Below are positions 27,026 to 62,956 of a DNA stretch of 64,000 nucleotides, piece after piece. This stretch comes from Phycisphaerae bacterium (GTDB taxonomy: Bacteria; Planctomycetota; Phycisphaerae; Sedimentisphaerales; UBA12454), in the NCBI GenBank assembly GCA_041652575.1, contig JBAZHC010000008.1, positions 46,022 through 110,021 of the forward strand, given 5' to 3'. Made by a program: the position numbers and the translations under genes. The notes under the pieces are model-generated. The model was not told the DNA's origin and did no database searches. It was given only the letters and a program-made list of their open reading frames with translations. Each line of letters starts with the position of its first letter. Position 1 is the first letter of the stretch.

Positions 27026-27120
27026 TCTTCTTGCAAAACAGGCCTTTGGGCTGTAAAGTAAGCTTTGAAACAGGGTTTCAGATTAGACTGTTTTCGTAAC
27101 ATAATACCAGAAATAGAGTT

Positions 27121-27194
27121 GCGTCCGTAGCTCAATTGGATAGAGTGCCGGCCTACGAAGCCGAAGGTTACAGGTTCGACTCCTGTCGGACGCA
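27121..27194 (+). tRNA. tRNA-Arg (anticodon ACG)
   Basis: Acceptor stem GCGTCCG/CGGACGC, D arm GCTC-AATTGGATA-GAGT, anticodon loop CTACGAA, T arm ACAGG-TTCGACT-CCTGT; CCA not encoded. Confidence 0.97.
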
Positions 27195-27199
27195 TTGTT

Positions 27200-27278
27200 C
27201 TTAGCCACAAAGGCACTAAGACACTAAATTTTTATTTATATTTTTTTTACTTTGTGCCTTTGTGTCTTAGTGGCTAAG
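27200..27278. repeat. Inverted octamer-array element (copy 1, complete)
   Basis: CTTAG CCACAAAG GCACTAAG ACACTAAA, T-rich spacer, CTTTGTGC CTTTGTGT CTTAGTGG CTAAG. Perfect 9-bp terminal IR CTTAGCCAC/GTGGCTAAG. Confidence 0.9.
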
Positions 27279-27294
27279 TTTTTAAGGAAAAACC

Positions 27295-28296
27295 ATGGAA
27301 ACGAAAAAAGATTTCTCAGAACAGATACTTGAAAAAGCGACATCCCTTTTCAAGCACATCGTTCTGCCGGAAGGCGGAGACACAAGAACAATAGAAGCAG
27401 CAAAAAAAATCGCCGACAGGAAAATGGCGAAAATTACCATTCTCGGCGATGAAAAACAAATCGGCGATGTGCTTAAAAGTATGGGGGCAAAAACAAACGA
27501 CATCACAATCATCAATCCAAAAACCAGCAGCAAATTAAAAGACTACGCTGAACAATTTTATCAGCTTCGCAAAAATAAAGGCGTTACGCCGGAAGCAGCC
27601 CTCGAAACAGTAAAAGACGAAGTCTATTTCGGGACAATGATGGTCAAAACCGATGAAGTTGACGGCCTCGTATCCGGTGCGGTACATTCGACACCTGATA
27701 CCGTCCGCCCCGCTCTGCAAATCATTAAAGCTGCCAAAGGTATCGCGACGGTTTCGAGTATGTTCTTTATGACAAACAGCAAAATGACAATTCTATTTGC
27801 AGACTCCGGCCTGAATCAGGACCCTGACGCCGAACAGTTGGCAGATATCGCCATTACAACGGCAAGGACCGCGAAACAGTTCGGAATCGTTCCGAGAATC
27901 GCGATGCTCTCATATTCTACAAAAGGCTCCGCAAAAGGCACAGGCCCGGACAAAATGATAAAGGCAACTGAACTTGCTAAAGCCAAACTTGCCAGTGGGT
28001 TTGACGGCGAATATCAAATCGACGGCGAACTGCAATTCGATTCAGCCTTTGTGCCGAAAGTCGCAGCGAAAAAATGCCCGGACAGTCCCATTAAAGGCCA
28101 GGCCAATGTGTTTATATTCCCGGATTTGGGAGCAGGCAATATCTGTTACAAAATGACGGAAAGACTTGCCGGCCTGAACGCTTACGGCCCAATTTTGCAG
28201 GGAATCGCAAAGCCGGTTAACGATTTATCCCGCGGCTGCAACAGCGATGATATCGTCGCAGCGGCAGCGATAACGGCCATCCAAACCTTAGGATAG
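27295..28296 (+). CDS. pta: Phosphate acetyltransferase
   Basis: IVLPEG, DGLVSGAVHST, RPALQII, FADSG, AMLSYSTKGS, IDGELQFD, FIFPDLGAGNICYK, GPILQG, VNDLSRG. Confidence 0.96.
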   Translation: METKKDFSEQILEKATSLFKHIVLPEGGDTRTIEAAKKIADRKMAKITILGDEKQIGDVLKSMGAKTNDITIINPKTSSKLKDYAEQFYQLRKNKGVTPEAALETVKDEVYFGTMMVKTDEVDGLVSGAVHSTPDTVRPALQIIKAAKGIATVSSMFFMTNSKMTILFADSGLNQDPDAEQLADIAITTARTAKQFGIVPRIAMLSYSTKGSAKGTGPDKMIKATELAKAKLASGFDGEYQIDGELQFDSAFVPKVAAKKCPDSPIKGQANVFIFPDLGAGNICYKMTERLAGLNAYGPILQGIAKPVNDLSRGCNSDDIVAAAAITAIQTLG

Positions 28297-28306
28297 TCTT
28301 TTTATA

Positions 28307-28456
28307 AATCGCTGATTACACGGATTATGCCAAAATAGGAAGCAAAGAAATGAGGAAACAAGGATGCAAGGACCAGTTTCGACCGTTTTCCTTACTTCTA
28401 TACCTCTTTACTTCCTTACTTCATTTTAATCAATGGAATCAGCGTAATCTGTGATT
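28307..28456. repeat. Nested inverted repeat element: nonamer arms outside, octamer arms inside
   Basis: Outer arms AATCGCTGATTACACGGATT (28307-28326) and AATCAATGG AATCAGCGT AATCTGTGA (28428-28454). Inner arms are purine-rich GNAAGGAA-like units (28337-28372) and TTCCTTAC-like units (28388-28422). Confidence 0.85.
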
Positions 28457-56962: not shown

Positions 56963-57922
56963 TTACTTTCTATAAACATTTCTGACCGCGTAGATTTTTC
57001 GGTCGGTCGCTTCGAAATACACCCTGCTTATCAGTTCGCCCAGGAGGCCGGTTGAAATAAAAATCAAACCCATAAGTAAAAGAACTATCCCTGCCGCGGC
57101 TAACGGTCCGTGAGCATCGAGTATCGGCACATTAAAATAAAGCTTGTCAAAAAGCACATAAGCCAAAATAAGACCGGAAATCACGAGACAGTAAAACGCG
57201 GCCTTGCCGAAGAAATGCAGCGGCCGGGTGATATAACCCAGAAGAAAACGAAGGGTAATCAAATCGAACGCCACTCTGAACGTTCGTGATATGCCGTAAT
57301 TGCTCTTGCCTGCCGGTCTTTCAATGTTCTTAATCGGAATTTCAATAATCCTTGCACCGCTGGAGGAAACAAGGGCAGGAATAAATCGGTGCATCTCGCC
57401 GTAGAGTCTCAGGTCGTCGATTATCTGCCGCCGGTAAGCCTTGAAGGTTGTGCCGAAATCGTGAATATCCACGCCGCTGACCTTTGAGGCCATCCAGTTG
57501 GCGGCCCTGCTCGGAATTTTTCGCATAATAAGATTATCGACCCGTTTTTCCCGCCAGCCGCTTACGACGTCGTAGCCTTGCTCTATCTTCACCAGGAAAT
57601 TCGGTATCTCTTCCGGCAGATGCTGCAGGTCGCCGTCCATACTTATTATCACTTCGCCGCAGGTATGGTCGAACCCTGCCGCCAAAGCGGGCGTCTGCCC
57701 GAAATTTCTCCGCAATTCTACCGCTACTACATGCTCGTCCTTTTCGGCGATGCTCTTCAGCTTTTCCATCGTCGTATCGCTGCTGCCGTCGTCGACAAGC
57801 ACAAGCTCGTAACTTCCGCCCGTTTGTTTCATCACCTTTGTAAGCCGTTCGTAAAGTTCCTGCACTACGGACTGTTCGTTATACAAAGGAACTACTATCG
57901 AATATTTCACACTCTCAGCCAT
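56963..57922 (-). CDS. GT2 polyprenol-phosphate glycosyltransferase (ArnC/DPM-like)
   Basis: IVVPLYNE, VDDGSSD, RNFGQ, MDGDLQH, DFGTTFKAYRR, HRFIPAL, two C-terminal TM helices. Start at MAESV (57922). Confidence 0.92.
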   Translation of the reverse strand: MAESVKYSIVVPLYNEQSVVQELYERLTKVMKQTGGSYELVLVDDGSSDTTMEKLKSIAEKDEHVVAVELRRNFGQTPALAAGFDHTCGEVIISMDGDLQHLPEEIPNFLVKIEQGYDVVSGWREKRVDNLIMRKIPSRAANWMASKVSGVDIHDFGTTFKAYRRQIIDDLRLYGEMHRFIPALVSSSGARIIEIPIKNIERPAGKSNYGISRTFRVAFDLITLRFLLGYITRPLHFFGKAAFYCLVISGLILAYVLFDKLYFNVPILDAHGPLAAAGIVLLLMGLIFISTGLLGELISRVYFEATDRKIYAVRNVYRK

Positions 57923-57940
57923 TTCTATTCCCTTTACATA

Positions 57941-58013
57941 TCCGCCATGGCCCAAAGGCACTAATTTTTTATTTATATTTTTTTCTTAGTGTCTTAGTGC
58001 CTTAGTGGCTAAA
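57941..58013. repeat. Inverted octamer-array element (copy 2, left arm degenerate)
   Basis: CAAAGGCACTAA, spacer T6-ATTTATA-T7 (almost identical to the copy 1 spacer), CTTAGTGT CTTAGTGC CTTAGTGG CTA. The TAG stop of the upstream gene lies in the terminus. Confidence 0.85.
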
Positions 58014-58851
58014 TTTTACCATAATGCACAAGTTCAATTCCTGCTTCGGATAGAATCTGTTTCGTCGCCGATTCGCAGAGCCATTTAAGTTCGACCTGAC
58101 GCTGTTCGACAAGACGAGTATTCACAAGACCTTCCGGATAACCCGGATGCGTCATAACTTCAGCTGTTCCGCCGAATTGCGTCTTGCCGATTTCGGCCCA
58201 GAACTCTTTGTCGATTCTGCCCGTATGGGCCAGACCGAAGAAAATATCATTCTTTATAAAACGGCTGTCTATCTTCTGACAGTTTACCGCCATTTGCCTT
58301 ACCATAAAAGCGCGAATTTTATCTTTCATACCGACCTGCGGCCAATTACCGCAGCAGACTGTCTCCGGCTCCCACGGCCACCGAATAGCGCCTATCTTAA
58401 AATTCTCCGCCAGGGAGCATACTATCTTATATATTGGCCCAAAGCAGTGAAAGTGTTTATGCGAATCCAGATGAGTTGGCTTTACGCCTCTTTTTATGAC
58501 CGATTCAACCTGTGCCGTAAGTTCAATTTCGACAGCCTTGCGGATTTTTTCGCTAATAAACGTTTTAATTGCGAGCTTCGATGGCGAATATTTAAATTTG
58601 CCGTCTTCCCCAAGCAGAACATCTACTTTCGAGTCTGTGGAAACGGGCTTGCCTTCGAGGACATTCAAATGCACCCCTACTCCGAGACTCGGCATCTTTT
58701 TAGCCATTGCTACCGCCTCATCCGACCCGGGCATATTGGCCATAATTGTAGCGCTGGTAAGCACTCCGCCGCAGTGTGCCTCGGCGATGGCTTTATTAAC
58801 GCCTTCGCAAAGTCCGAAGTCGTCCGCGTTTATAATCATTTTTGCCGTCAT
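58009..58851 (-). CDS. ChbG/HpnK (YdjC) family deacetylase
   Basis: IINADDFGL, GVLTSATIMAN, GVHLN, HLDSHKH, EVMTHPG. Start at MTAKM (58851). Confidence 0.92.
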   Translation of the reverse strand: MTAKMIINADDFGLCEGVNKAIAEAHCGGVLTSATIMANMPGSDEAVAMAKKMPSLGVGVHLNVLEGKPVSTDSKVDVLLGEDGKFKYSPSKLAIKTFISEKIRKAVEIELTAQVESVIKRGVKPTHLDSHKHFHCFGPIYKIVCSLAENFKIGAIRWPWEPETVCCGNWPQVGMKDKIRAFMVRQMAVNCQKIDSRFIKNDIFFGLAHTGRIDKEFWAEIGKTQFGGTAEVMTHPGYPEGLVNTRLVEQRQVELKWLCESATKQILSEAGIELVHYGKI

Positions 58852-60565: not shown

Positions 60566-61669
60566 ATGAAGACCCTTGATAAATATGTAATGAAAAACTT
60601 TCTCACAGGTTATCTGATTGCTTTCCTTGTGCTGATGGGGCTGCGCATAATGATAGACCTGTTCGTCAATGTCGACGAATTTACGGAAAATGCGCAGCTT
60701 ACATCCGTTCAGGTGCTGACAAATATCACGTCATATTACGGCAGATACAGTTTTCTGTACTTTCGTGACTTTGCCGGAATGATTACTGTCGTCGCGGCAG
60801 TGTTCTCGCTTGGAAAAATGACAAAAAACAACGAGCTGGTGGCCATAATGGCTTCCGGCGTAAGTCTCAAGCGGATGATAACACCTATTCTGGTTTTATC
60901 TCTTGCCTTCGCCGGCCTGCACGTAATCGACGAGGAACTTCTTATACCGCCGATGGCCGACAAACTTGTCCGCTCGCACGACGCTCTTGACGCGACTCTT
61001 TCTTATGATATGTGGTTCATCGGCGACAGCAGCGGCAACCTGTTCTGCTCCCCACAGTTCAAGGTACAGGACGGCATCATTATAAATCCGACAATAATAA
61101 CAAGAACCAGGAAGGGAAATTCCATACTCTGGGATGTTACAGGCATAATCAAAGCCGATTCCGCTCGTTACGACGATAATAAAAATTCATGGATTCTGGA
61201 TAACGGCGTGTTTCTGGCTGTATCGCAGAAGCTTGCCGACAAATCCTACCAAACGATAAAAACCTGTCCAAGCGACCTCACCCCGAAAGATATCCCCGTA
61301 AGGCGAAAATCAGCGCACATGGACCTGCTCAGTTCTTACGACCTTATAAAACTCGCCAGGCAGAGTCCCAAAGACCTCGCAAGACTCTACGCGCAGAAAA
61401 ACTTCCGTTTAACAGACCCCATAATAAATCTCATTATGCTTATGATTTCTCTGCCAGTACTTGTCTGCAGAGACCCGAAAAGTCTCAAATCTGCTGTCTT
61501 TATAAGTTTCGCCCTGACGGGCACCTGCTATATCCTGACTTTCGTAAGCAAAATCTTCGCCTCGGAAATAACTATAGCCGGCAGGGTTATGCCCGAATTG
61601 TGGGCCTGGCTGCCGATTTTCATCTTTCTGCCGATAGCCTTTATCGAGCTGGATTCAATGAAAACATAA
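60566..61669 (+). CDS. lptG: LptF/LptG family permease (LptG-like)
   Basis: TLDKYV, KNNELVAIMASGVSLKR, ADSARYD, WAWLP. Confidence 0.87.
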   Translation: MKTLDKYVMKNFLTGYLIAFLVLMGLRIMIDLFVNVDEFTENAQLTSVQVLTNITSYYGRYSFLYFRDFAGMITVVAAVFSLGKMTKNNELVAIMASGVSLKRMITPILVLSLAFAGLHVIDEELLIPPMADKLVRSHDALDATLSYDMWFIGDSSGNLFCSPQFKVQDGIIINPTIITRTRKGNSILWDVTGIIKADSARYDDNKNSWILDNGVFLAVSQKLADKSYQTIKTCPSDLTPKDIPVRRKSAHMDLLSSYDLIKLARQSPKDLARLYAQKNFRLTDPIINLIMLMISLPVLVCRDPKSLKSAVFISFALTGTCYILTFVSKIFASEITIAGRVMPELWAWLPIFIFLPIAFIELDSMKT

Positions 61670-61716
61670 AAGCCGCCAAAAAAAAATTGCATTTTAAATT
61701 TTTAATTCTAAATTAT

Positions 61717-61743
61717 CTTAGTGTCTTTGTGCCTTAGTGGCTA
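61717..61743. repeat. Solo octamer-array arm (copy 3)
   Basis: CTTAGTGT CTTTGTGC CTTAGTGG CTA directly before the TAAGGA RBS; no left arm seen. Confidence 0.8.
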
Positions 61744-61759
61744 TTTAAGGATATAAAAA

Positions 61760-62956
61760 ATGACAGAATTTAAAATAGAACCGGCTGAACGTATTAAAAG
61801 ACTGCCGCCTTATCTTTTTGGAAGACTTAACGCTCTTAAGCTCGCCAAAAGACAGCAGCAAATCGACATTATCGACCTCGGTATGGGAAATCCCTCCGAC
61901 CCCACTCCGCAGGTAATCGTTGACAAGCTTTGCGAAGCCGCCCGCGACCCCCGCAATCAGCGGTACAGCTCCAGCAGAGGCATCTTTAATCTCAGAAGAG
62001 AAGTCGCTATTAAATATGCCAAACAGTATAACGTCGAACTCGACCCAAATACCGAAGTCCTCGCCTGTATCGGCTCAAAGGAAGGTTTTAGTCATTTGTG
62101 TCTTGCGATGCTCGGTCCCGGAGATACGGCTCTCGTCGCTGACCCGGCGTTTCCAATCCATATTTACGCCGTTGCTCTTGCCGGCGCAAACGTCGTTACT
62201 GTACCGCTCGGCAATACACAGGATTCGCTGAAAAATATTCAGGAAACCTGCGAAAAACTTTATCCACGTCCGAAGATGATGATTTTGAACTTTCCGCATA
62301 ATCCAACGGCAATGACTGTTGATGACATAAGTTATTTTGAAACTGTTGTCGATATCGCAAAAAGACTCAATATCGCTGTCATTCACGACTTCGCCTATGG
62401 CGATACCTGCTTTGACGGCTACAAGGCTCCGAGTTTCCTTTCTGCAAAAGGCGCAAAGGACGTAGGTGTAGAATTTTCCACTTTGAGCAAGGCCTACAAT
62501 ATGGCCGGCTGGCGAATAGGCTTCGCAACCGGAAACAAGCAGATGATTGAAGCCCTTGCGACTATTAAGGGTTATTATGATTACGGCATTTTCCAGGCCA
62601 TTCAGATTGCAAGTATTATCGCGATGAGGCAATGCGAAAACGATACAGTTGAGCAGAACAAAAAATATCAGTTCCGCAGGGATGTCGTCTGCGACTGCCT
62701 TGCGAAAGTCGGCTGGCAGGTCGAAAAACCTCGCGCCTCGATGTTCGTCTGGGCAAGAGTTCCAGATGACCAGTTAAAAGGCAAAGGCACTATTGATTTC
62801 GCGATGGATTTGATTGAAAACGCAAACGTCGTCGTTTCGCCCGGCAGAGCCTTTGGCGAAAATGGCGAAGGGTATATGCGAATAGCTCTTGTCGAAAATG
62901 AAAACCGTATGCGGCAAGCCTTCCGCAACATCAAAAAATACATCCAAAAAGGATAA
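61760..62956 (+). CDS. Class I/II PLP aminotransferase (AlaC / LL-DAP aminotransferase-like)
   Basis: LPPYLF, DLGMGNP, GSKEG, NFPHNPT, HDFAY, TLSKAYNMAGWRIG (PLP Lys), GEGYMRIAL. Confidence 0.93.
   Translation: MTEFKIEPAERIKRLPPYLFGRLNALKLAKRQQQIDIIDLGMGNPSDPTPQVIVDKLCEAARDPRNQRYSSSRGIFNLRREVAIKYAKQYNVELDPNTEVLACIGSKEGFSHLCLAMLGPGDTALVADPAFPIHIYAVALAGANVVTVPLGNTQDSLKNIQETCEKLYPRPKMMILNFPHNPTAMTVDDISYFETVVDIAKRLNIAVIHDFAYGDTCFDGYKAPSFLSAKGAKDVGVEFSTLSKAYNMAGWRIGFATGNKQMIEALATIKGYYDYGIFQAIQIASIIAMRQCENDTVEQNKKYQFRRDVVCDCLAKVGWQVEKPRASMFVWARVPDDQLKGKGTIDFAMDLIENANVVVSPGRAFGENGEGYMRIALVENENRMRQAFRNIKKYIQKG

What the first reader, a model, noticed from the sequence alone, without database searches (positions are those of the whole stretch)
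27200..27278. Empty inverted octamer-array element after tRNA-Arg, with homologous copies at 57941 and 61717
Three NCAC(A/T)AAG units face three inverted units across a T-rich spacer, with a perfect terminal IR CTTAGCCAC/GTGGCTAAG. The copy at 57941-58013 shares even the spacer (T5-6 ATTTATA T7-8), so the copies are homologous rather than convergent. Unit order is shuffled between arms and copies, as expected from slippage or conversion. It starts 5 nt after the tRNA and ends just before the pta RBS. Inference: a cargo-less derivative of the same kind of element as the four-helix-bundle cassette.
Basis: partly seen in the sequence, partly recalled or inferred. Interest (0 to 1): 0.65.

Follow-up and report, generated by a model that had tools for sequence, protein, structure and literature searches.

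The report
Gene-less copy of nuclease-cassette repeat
The 79-base mirror-image repeat after tRNA-Arg is a gene-less copy of a small, apparently undescribed repeat element that occurs in many bacterial phyla and sometimes carries one tiny nuclease gene; at this site its arms have stayed nearly unchanged across five species and it probably ends the tRNA transcript.

Summary
Window 27200-27278 holds two inverted arms around a 21-nt T-rich spacer. Each arm is three tandem octamers (CTTNGTGY) ending in GTGGCTAAG.

- **Abundance.** It is one of about 93 such loci in this 2.98-Mb genome (33 two-armed, about 60 single arms).
- **Distribution.** The exact arm pattern occurs in most genomes of the same family and in none of 16 genomes from sister families. 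It is patchy across the phylum. It was found on at least 120 contigs from roughly ten other phyla, where chance predicts about one.
- **Cargo.** In relatives and in other phyla the same arms bracket a ~130-aa GxxExxY (PD-(D/E)XK, PF13366) gene. These genes form one well-supported clade, and other GxxExxY clades carry other arm "dialects".
- **History.** The copy at 57941 is an insertion found only in this genome among the eight with this junction. The copy at 27200 is shared by five species. Its arms vary at 6 of 54 columns, against 86% of 4-fold sites in pta.
- **Local role.** It folds at -28 kcal/mol and is followed by T5. All four elements that abut tRNA 3' ends have such a T-run.
- **Unexplained.** The variable positions of the two arms avoid being complementary (z = -7).

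How the element moves is not shown.

The parts
27120..27195 (+). tRNA-Arg (anticodon ACG). The element starts 4 nt after its 3' end.
   Evidence: ARAGORN; Rfam tRNA, 66.9 bits. A promoter-like site TTCAGA-17-CATAAT lies at 27077-27105.
27200..27228 (.). Left arm: CTTAG + CCAC AAAG GCAC TAAG ACAC TAAA. This is the reverse complement of three CTTNGTGN octamers plus the GTGGCTAAG terminus.
   Evidence: It is nearly invariant in the orthologous copies of G001, G003, G006 and G008.
27229..27249 (.). AT-rich spacer TTTTTATTTATATTTTTTTTA, which forms the hairpin loop.
   Evidence: It has diverged almost beyond alignment among the five orthologous copies, while the arms have not.
27250..27278 (.). Right arm: CTTTGTGC CTTTGTGT CTTAGTGG + CTAAG.
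   Evidence: It pairs with the left arm in a -28.3 kcal/mol hairpin with single-base mismatches at the variable positions.
27279..27283 (+). T5 run directly after the hairpin on the strand on which tRNA-Arg is transcribed.
   Evidence: A T-run is present in all five orthologous copies. All 4 elements that abut tRNA 3' ends have T5-6 on the exit side.
27284..27297 (+). AAGGA ribosome-binding site (27284-27288) and the pta start codon (27295-27297).
   Evidence: The 333-aa ORF aligns with Pta orthologues.
57950..58011 (.). Second copy: a degenerate two-unit left arm, the spacer, and a full right arm CTTAGTGT CTTAGTGC CTTAGTGG CTA. Among the eight genus genomes that keep this gene junction, only this one has it. 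On the minus strand its terminal TAG is the stop codon of the deacetylase-like gene, which lost 3 codons.
61717..61743 (+). Single arm CTTAGTGT CTTTGTGC CTTAGTGG CTA, 17 nt upstream of an aminotransferase start codon. Other species carry other arm dialects, or nothing, at this junction.

Best explanation
**Shown: what the element is.**
- The element is a gene-less, two-armed copy of a widespread family of small palindromic cassette elements.
- Each arm is three tandem octamers, (CACNAAGR)3 on one side and (CTTNGTGY)3 on the other, with GCCAC/GTGGC termini.
- Gene-bearing members carry, exactly between the arms, one ~130-aa GxxExxY protein (PD-(D/E)XK nuclease superfamily). All of these belong to one clade.
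- Other GxxExxY clades carry other arm 'dialects'.
- Copies are gained and lost at orthologous sites.

**Inferred: how the family spreads.**
- The arms are the recognition sites of the cassette's own nuclease.
- Gene-less copies behave like non-autonomous partners, as REPINs do with RAYT. They are mobilised in trans or left behind when the gene is lost.

**This copy: what is shown and what is inferred.**
- Inferred: it entered the tRNA-Arg/pta junction in an ancestor of five sampled species.
- Shown: its arms have changed little since then.
- Inferred: the arms are kept by selection. On the transcript it forms an imperfect 29-position hairpin followed by U5, and most likely ends or processes the tRNA-Arg transcript ahead of pta.
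For: **Family and cargo.**
- This genome holds 126 arms: 33 two-armed and 60 single-arm loci.
- The exact 27-nt pattern was found on at least 120 contigs from many phyla, against about 1 expected.
- In 6 of 120 such loci, and in G014, G015, G022 and G024, a PF13366/TIGR04256 gene sits exactly between the arms. It always reads from the CACNAAG arm to the CTTNGTG arm.
- These genes form one clade with 100/100 support. Arm dialect tracks the protein tree: 23 changes against 44.7 when shuffled.

**Gain and loss.**
- Among the eight genus genomes that keep that junction, the 57941 copy is present only in G000, and the ancestral junction can be read.
- The tRNA-Arg/pta element is present in 5 species and absent in G005 and G010. 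This fits one gain on the Pta tree.
- Distribution across the phylum is patchy: 17 of 301 genomes, with up to 76 arms in one genome.

**Constraint in place.**
- 6 of 54 arm columns vary, against 87 of 101 4-fold sites and 85 of 558 codon positions 1+2.
- G006 has a paired CCGC/GCGG change. G003 has a change that gives G.U on the transcribed strand only.

**Terminator role.**
- The fold is -28.3 kcal/mol, z = -4.4.
- T5 follows the hairpin in all five orthologues.
- 4 of 4 elements that abut tRNA 3' ends have T5-6 on the exit side, against 12 of 66 flanks overall.
Against: **Against mobilisation by a cognate nuclease.**
- No gene of the cognate nuclease clade is in this 97%-complete assembly; the best match is 45% identical.
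- The number of GxxExxY genes does not track the number of octamer arms across relatives. G019 has 15 arms and no PF13366 hit.
- No two copies in this genome are near-identical, so there is no sign of recent spread here.
- No target-site duplication could be defined.
- Linkage alone could explain why arms and genes co-vary.

**Against a general terminator role.**
- Genome-wide, exit flanks are no richer in T-runs than other flanks (6 of 33 each).
- Elements sit equally in tandem, convergent and divergent junctions (19, 7 and 7).
- The tool's strict terminator scan does not call this hairpin, because the loop is too long.
- No transcript data could be obtained.
Confidence: 0.65

Rival explanations
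1. Same identity, but no function for the host. The copy would be a tolerated remnant of selfish DNA, and its constancy across species would come from something other than selection for a host role.
For: - Elements occur in all gene orientations at the proportions expected for random intergenic insertion.
- Single arms decay. The G008 arm at the 61717 junction is degenerate.
- G019 keeps only an 11-nt footprint of a cassette.
- Junctions are occupied by different dialects in different species.
Against: - Arms vary at 11% of columns while 4-fold sites vary at 86% and the spacer is scrambled.
- The variable positions are also inherited unchanged. This argues against overwriting by other copies.
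- A compensatory pair change keeps the terminal stem.
Confidence: 0.2
2. A REP/REPIN element mobilised by a RAYT (Y1 HUH transposase).
For: - It is a short extragenic palindromic doublet in high copy, and doublets are better kept than singlets. These are the features of REPINs (PMC3116915).
- The genome does encode six Y1_Tnp-like genes.
Against: - The Y1_Tnp genes are flanked by a different, GC-rich hairpin repeat (for example TTTAGCCCCCACCCCTGCGGTGGGGGCTAAA), not by octamer arms.
- Octamer arms instead bracket GxxExxY genes.
- Each arm is a tandem array, not itself a palindrome.
Confidence: 0.06
3. A host-evolved regulatory or structural site unrelated to mobile DNA. Candidates are an operator array for a transcription factor, a promoter element, or a lineage-specific terminator motif.
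For: - Many arms end 15-25 nt before start codons.
- Elements next to tRNA genes look like terminators.
- The arms are conserved within the family.
Against: - The same 27-nt arm occurs in about ten other phyla and brackets a gene of its own.
- Within the phylum it is patchy.
- It is found in convergent junctions, where a promoter makes no sense, and in divergent ones, where a terminator makes none.
- One insertion is specific to this genome and cut into a coding region.
Confidence: 0.05
4. The arms act mainly at the RNA level, as a processing stem that insulates whatever lies between them (a gene, an RNA or nothing). This would resemble the RNase III stems around ORF-bearing intervening sequences of 23S rRNA. 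Spread would occur by recombination between arms and not through the nuclease.
For: - Gene-bearing copies place the arms directly around the ORF. The last unit of the 5' arm (AAAGG) serves as the ribosome-binding site.
- GxxExxY and 23S_rRNA_IVP genes occur as separate inserts in one operon.
- The G003 change keeps pairing only on the transcribed strand.
Against: - This does not explain why the arm sequence, and not only the pairing, is kept across phyla.
- It does not explain why the variable positions avoid pairing.
- RNase III cutting could not be tested.
Confidence: 0.15

Closest known systems
REPINs and their RAYT genes (Bertels & Rainey 2011, PMC3116915)
   Same: - Both are short extragenic repeats arranged as inverted doublets that form hairpins.
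- Both have many gene-less copies and few copies that flank a single small gene.
- In both, doublets are better preserved than singlets.
- In both, each gene lineage has its own repeat type.
- Both are inherited vertically over long periods.
   Different: - The associated gene is a PD-(D/E)XK GxxExxY protein, not a Y1 HUH transposase.
- Each arm is a tandem array of three octamers, not a palindrome.
- The same arm sequence spans many phyla.
- The RAYT genes of this genome have their own, different repeats.
ORF-bearing intervening sequences of 23S rRNA (for example the Coxiella burnetii IVS with S23p, PMC4990558, abstract seen)
   Same: - Both are small selfish inserts with one short ORF between inverted repeats.
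- Both are tolerated inside a transcript.
- Genes of that family (PF05635) occur as similar cassettes in this window and next to a GxxExxY cassette.
   Different: - This element is not in rRNA.
- This copy has no ORF.
- The cargo of octamer arms is GxxExxY, not the four-helix-bundle protein.
- RNase III excision was not tested.
Correia elements / bacterial MITEs
   Same: - Both are about 70-150 bp and have terminal inverted repeats.
- Both are intergenic and often sit at gene ends.
- Both can supply terminators or processing sites.
(These features of Correia elements and MITEs are from my own knowledge.)
   Different: - No DDE transposase parent was found.
- No target duplication could be defined.
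- The arms are tandem octamers with fixed and free positions.
Integron attC sites
   Same: - Both are imperfect palindromes that sit tightly between ORFs.
- In both, unpaired bases could matter for recognition of a folded strand.
(These features of attC sites are from my own knowledge.)
   Different: - The termini are GCCAC/GTGGC, not the RYYYAAC/GTTRRRY core sites.
- The copies are scattered among housekeeping genes and not gathered in an array next to an integrase. I did not search for an integrase.

Membership tests
Octamer-armed GxxExxY cassette family (not found described) | Arm made of three tandem CTTNGTGY octamers ending in GTGGC | tested here: met
Octamer-armed GxxExxY cassette family (not found described) | Two arms in inverted orientation around a short spacer or a gene | tested here: met
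   There are 33 such loci in the genome and 95 distinct ones across all sequence held.
Octamer-armed GxxExxY cassette family (not found described) | The same arms bracket a GxxExxY gene of one clade elsewhere | tested here: met
   The clade has 100/100 support.
Octamer-armed GxxExxY cassette family (not found described) | Presence or absence differs at orthologous sites | tested here: met
Octamer-armed GxxExxY cassette family (not found described) | Cognate nuclease gene present in the same genome | tested here: not met
   tblastn gives a best match of 45% identity, and all hits belong to other clades. The assembly is 97% complete.
REP/REPIN-RAYT | Extragenic inverted doublets that form hairpins, in high copy | tested here: met
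REP/REPIN-RAYT | The repeat flanks a RAYT (Y1_Tnp) gene | tested here: not met
   There are six Y1_Tnp hits. Those with recognisable flanking repeats carry a different, GC-rich hairpin repeat, and none has octamer arms next to it.
MITE | Terminal inverted repeats plus a target-site duplication | tested here: inconclusive
   Inverted termini are present. At the one insertion with a readable ancestral site (57941) no duplication could be defined.
Intrinsic (rho-independent) terminator | Stable stem-loop directly followed by a U-tract on the transcribed strand | tested here: inconclusive
   At this locus the fold is -28.3 kcal/mol and T5 follows, and 4 of 4 tRNA-adjacent elements have T5-6. However, the loop is 21-29 nt, the strict scan does not call it, and there is no enrichment of T-runs genome-wide.
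ORF-bearing 23S rRNA intervening sequence | Inserted in helix 25 or 45 of 23S rRNA and excised by RNase III | tested here: not met
   The element lies between tRNA-Arg and pta. RNase III excision is not testable with these tools.
Any Rfam family | Match at or above the family's gathering score | tested here: not met
   Only sub-threshold matches to hairpin (miRNA) models.
Integron attC | R''/R' core sites and a neighbouring integron integrase | not tested
   The termini read GCCAC/GTGGC. I ran no integrase search.

The most novel reading that the evidence does not exclude
The single-base mismatches at every fourth position of the folded element may be actively maintained. They would then be part of what a minimal ~130-aa PD-(D/E)XK nuclease recognises on a folded (hairpin or cruciform) form of the arms. 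That would define a new, structure-reading class of mobile element that crosses phyla, with gene-less copies recruited as tRNA terminators.
Probability: 0.2. Interest if true: 0.85.

Novelty: new variant of a known kind. Interest (0 to 1): 0.62.

Why it matters
- **A possible new small mobile-element type.** If the arms and the GxxExxY gene form one mobile unit, it would be one of the smallest types known. It would use an enzyme class not known to drive this kind of element, and it would be spread over many phyla without, as far as I could find, having been described.
- **Annotation.** It would give a function to a large family annotated only as 'GxxExxY protein'. It would also explain a class of puzzling intergenic repeats in Planctomycetota, Bacteroidota, Desulfobacterota and other phyla.
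- **Exaptation.** This copy has arms held nearly constant for as long as it took silent sites to saturate, and it may serve as a tRNA terminator. That makes it a concrete case for studying how such DNA is taken into host service.
- **Testability.** A cultured carrier exists (Flavobacterium flevense DSM 1076), so the idea can be tested.

Tried and rejected
**Searches that found nothing.**
- Rfam gave no family, on this region or on three other element regions.
- Literature searches for the arm words, GxxExxY, PF13366 and TIGR04256 found nothing relevant. PDDEXK_3 is listed as 'unknown' in PMC3424549.
- A PDB sequence search with the cognate nuclease gave no match.

**Hypotheses tested and not supported.**
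- General terminator: exit flanks are no richer in T-runs than other flanks.
- Promoter: no sigma-70-like site lies inside the element, and some copies sit in convergent junctions.
- Fixed polarity of the element: the order of the arm units does not go with an A-rich or T-rich spacer.
- RAYT partner: rejected.
- Gene count against arm count across relatives: no relation.
- Recent bursts: no near-identical copies.
- Mismatches as simple avoidance of unstable DNA palindromes: there is no trend with spacer length, and the shortest spacers have the most pairing.
- 57941 as a direct copy of 27200: the spacer and left arm agree, but the right arm matches the complement of the 27200 left arm, and similar spacers recur elsewhere. 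I left this open.

**Steps that failed or were too small to use.**
- The structure model of the nuclease was poor (pLDDT 41), so I ran no fold search.
- Looking up identical proteins at several loci to define the element ends returned only one genomic context.
- The same mismatch test on the nonamer dialect had only 2 usable elements.
- On gene-bearing copies the sample was also too small.

Full report
**1. The observation**

Window 27200-27278 reads as follows:
- Left arm: CTTAG CCAC AAAG GCAC TAAG ACAC TAAA.
- Spacer: TTTTTATTTATATTTTTTTTA.
- Right arm: CTTTGTGC CTTTGTGT CTTAGTGG CTAAG.

tRNA-Arg(ACG) ends at 27195. After the element come T5, AAGGA and the pta ATG at 27295. The 57941 copy has a shortened left arm, and 61717 is a single arm.

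**2. A genome-wide family**

The window is C8:46022-110021 of a 2.98-Mb, 27-contig, 44.5% G+C assembly. With one mismatch allowed per double unit, the genome holds 126 arms: 33 two-armed loci and 60 single arms.

Every arm has the same build:
- It has three units, CTTNGTG followed by T or C, ending in CTTNGTGG C(TA).
- Position 4 of each unit is free. Position 8 is a pyrimidine.
- Spacers are 16-30 nt, AT-rich, often with TATATA.

With tRNAs included, two-armed elements lie in tandem (19), convergent (7) and divergent (7) junctions. These are the proportions expected for random intergenic placement. They usually fill the gap almost completely.

The terminal TAG of TAGCCAC closes an open frame of at least 80 codons at 22 of 62 exact arms. 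Only 7 such frames run in on the other two frames together. So the element very often supplies the stop codon of the gene that reads into it.

**3. Distribution**

- The 27-nt pattern occurs in 21 of 25 genomes of the same family (including this one) and in none of 16 genomes from seven sister families of the order. The reversed control has no matches.
- In an even sample of the phylum, 17 of 301 genomes have it, scattered over families, with up to 76 arms in one genome.
They come from Planctomycetota, Bacteroidota (including cultured Flavobacterium), Acidobacteriota, Desulfobacterota, Nitrospinota, Chloroflexota, Cloacimonadota, WOR-3, Ignavibacteriota and others. My estimate of the chance expectation for that pattern in 596 Gb is about one.
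The window's genome is therefore probably from that order of the Phycisphaerae.

**4. Cargo**

- In 6 of the 120 loci, an ORF lies exactly between a left arm and a right arm. The order is: left arm, a few bases that give a ribosome-binding site, ATG ... stop, then the right arm within 1-5 nt.
- The ORF is a PDDEXK_3 / GxxExxY protein (PF13366 E = 4e-37; TIGR04256 E = 1.7e-39).
- All six ORFs found in about 800 kb were bracketed this way. All read from the CACNAAG arm to the CTTNGTG arm.
- The same is true in family relatives G014, G015, G022 and G024.

**5. Arm dialects go with gene clades**

This genome has ten PF13366 matches, seven of them full length. Their arms are other 'dialects' built to the same grammar: CTCTGTGNN, CTTCGTGNN, AATCCGCG.. 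and ATTCGTGTT...

I fetched 60 more genes from relatives and built a tree of 74 proteins.
- The genes with octamer arms form one clade with 100/100 support. It holds sequences from a Desulfobacterales MAG, a Pseudomonadota MAG, Flavobacterium flevense DSM 1076 and four genomes of this family.
- Crude dialect labels need 23 changes on the tree, against 44.7 for shuffled labels (0 of 200 shuffles as low).
- That clade is very abundant and uniform in metagenomes. Of the 8000 candidates scored, 7991 had E <= 1e-10, and the best 120 are 82-87% identical to the query.
- This genome's best match to the clade is only 45% identical. Its roughly 93 octamer loci therefore have no cognate gene in the assembly.
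- The number of PF13366 genes does not follow the number of arms across relatives.
- The co-variation fits recognition of the arms by the encoded protein. Linkage alone could also produce it.

**6. Gain, loss and turnover**

At 57941, seven other species of the genus have the two flanking genes 2-30 nt apart, and the deacetylase-like gene ends ...HYGK(I/L)(D/N)GK*. In this genome the element follows ...HYGKI and gives the TAG, and the old tail GGGAATAGAA ATG follows the element. This is an insertion specific to this lineage that removed three codons. I could not define a target duplication.

At the tRNA-Arg/pta junction:
- G000, G001, G003, G006 and G008 carry the element with the same bases at the free positions, so the copies are orthologous.
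- G005 and G010 have a 42-nt AT-rich gap.
- G004, G007, G012 and G014 have other sequence.
- The Pta tree allows a single gain.

At the 61717 junction, different species carry an octamer arm, a decayed octamer arm, a full nonamer element, a two-unit arm of another dialect, or nothing.

At the site of the G014/G024 gene-bearing cassette, G019 keeps only TAGCCACGAAG. G041 and G022 carry a different octamer (CCTTAC) element.

No two copies in this genome are near-identical. I therefore see old, mostly vertically inherited copies and not a recent burst.

**7. Constraint at this site**

Among the five orthologous copies:

| Sequence class | Variable columns |
|---|---|
| Arms | 6 of 54 |
| 4-fold degenerate sites of pta | 87 of 101 |
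| Codon positions 1+2 of pta | 85 of 558 |
| Spacer | changed almost beyond alignment |

- The free positions are inherited too. This argues against overwriting by other copies.
- G006 changed CCAC to CCGC and GTGG to GCGG together.
- G003 changed only the left side. That still pairs as G.U on the strand that is transcribed with the tRNA.

**8. What it probably does here**

- The + strand RNA folds at -28.3 kcal/mol (z = -4.4). The stem spans 29 positions with single-base mismatches at the variable positions, and UUUUU follows. The - strand folds equally well.
- A promoter-like site lies upstream of the tRNA. There is no room for one between the element and pta.
- Four two-armed elements lie 5-9 nt after tRNA 3' ends, where I estimate about 0.6 would be expected. 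All four have T5-6 on the exit side, against 12 of 66 flanks overall.
- For protein genes there is no such link.
- I infer that this copy serves as the terminator or processing hairpin of tRNA-Arg, with pta expressed by read-through or processing.

**9. An unexplained regularity**

In 95 distinct two-armed elements, the fixed positions of the two arms are complementary as expected. The five variable positions are complementary far less often than chance:

| Set | Watson-Crick pairs observed | Expected | z |
|---|---|---|---|
| All elements | 84 | 158 | -7.2 |
| This genome | 16 | 62 | -6.6 |
| Other genomes | 68 | 96 | -3.6 |

- Forty-four elements have no pair at any of the five positions.
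- At position 8 one arm reads C,T and the other T,C in 31 elements. The orders are the same in 4.
- The depletion shows no trend with spacer length. It is therefore not simply what one expects from instability of short-spacer DNA palindromes.
- It may reflect avoidance of perfect double-stranded RNA, or a fold that is read by a protein. I could not decide between these.

**10. Comparison with known systems**

- **REPIN/RAYT** is the closest working analogue (PMC3116915). Shared features are inverted doublets that form hairpins, many gene-less copies, a few copies flanking one small gene, and singlet decay.
- It is not a member of that family. The six Y1_Tnp genes of this genome are flanked, where a repeat is recognisable, by a separate GC-rich repeat and never by octamer arms. 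Octamer arms go with a PD-(D/E)XK gene.
- It is not an rRNA intervening sequence, although the cassette form resembles ORF-bearing ones (PMC4990558, abstract). A GxxExxY cassette and a 23S_rRNA_IVP cassette can sit in one operon.
- It matches no Rfam family.
- I found no paper that mentions the arm words or treats GxxExxY beyond 'function unknown'.
- Earlier notes of this scan on other genomes reached the same family assignment. I had found the cargo before reading them, and I checked it myself.

**11. Verdict**

| Claim | Status | Rough odds |
|---|---|---|
| Gene-less member of a cross-phylum, apparently undescribed cassette family | Well supported | - |
| The partner nuclease moves it | Inferred | About even |
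| This copy is a tRNA terminator | Inferred | Somewhat less than even |

The maintained mismatches are the most interesting loose end.

Noticed in passing
G000 C4:137952-138383, C14:39531-39968, C3:79461-79910, C11:100848-101219, C15:43846-44103 (outside the window): Y1_Tnp (RAYT-like) genes flanked by a separate GC-rich hairpin repeat, for example TTTAGCCCCCACCCCTGCGGTGGGGGCTAAA. This is a classical REP/RAYT system living beside the octamer family. Both repeat types begin with TTAGCC.
   Followed up: partly
window 57921-58030: The element insertion removed the last three codons of the minus-strand deacetylase-like gene and supplies its TAG stop. The old ribosome-binding site of the next gene survives downstream of the element.
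   Followed up: yes
window 61660-61760 and loci L174-L183: The same gene junction carries, in different species of the genus, an octamer arm, a decayed octamer arm, a full nonamer (CTCTGTGNN) element, a two-unit AAATCYGTG arm, or no array. All arrays end in GTGGCTA, about 15-40 nt before the start codon.
   Followed up: partly
L263 (G041) and L268 (G022), junction orthologous to the G014 cassette: A different palindromic element has four to five-unit arms of GTAAAGAT / TCCTTAC octamers around a GC-rich double hairpin core. It occupies the site where G014 and G024 have a GxxExxY cassette. It resembles the inner arms at window 28307-28456.
   Followed up: no
G000 C11:22150-22530 (outside the window): About 270 nt with no ORF and no Rfam match, bracketed by double arms (a CACAGAG/CACGAAG-type arm plus an octamer arm on each side). 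It could be an unknown RNA or a decayed cassette.
   Followed up: partly
G000 C23:270-648 (outside the window): The xseB gene (75 aa) is bracketed by two complete octamer elements. An ordinary gene can therefore look like a cassette.
   Followed up: partly
L281:1400-3300 (metagenome contig): One operon (AAA ATPase, ParA-like, polysaccharide export) holds both an octamer-armed GxxExxY cassette and a four-helix-bundle (PF05635) cassette with GGACGAAG/CTTCCGTC-type arms, each between two host genes.
   Followed up: partly
G000 C5:77122-77294 (outside the window): A second tRNA-Arg gene followed by an octamer element is 83% identical to window 27119-27290 over 172 nt. A tRNA-plus-element unit is therefore duplicated or convergently built.
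   Followed up: no
G184:C88:45820-45908 (same phylum): A long run of identical CTTGGTGG octamers, at least six in a row plus a further stretch. This array grew by simple tandem expansion, unlike the three-unit arms.
   Followed up: no
window 27077-27105: A promoter-like TTCAGA-17-CATAAT site lies 15 nt upstream of tRNA-Arg. No comparable site lies between the tRNA and pta.
   Followed up: no
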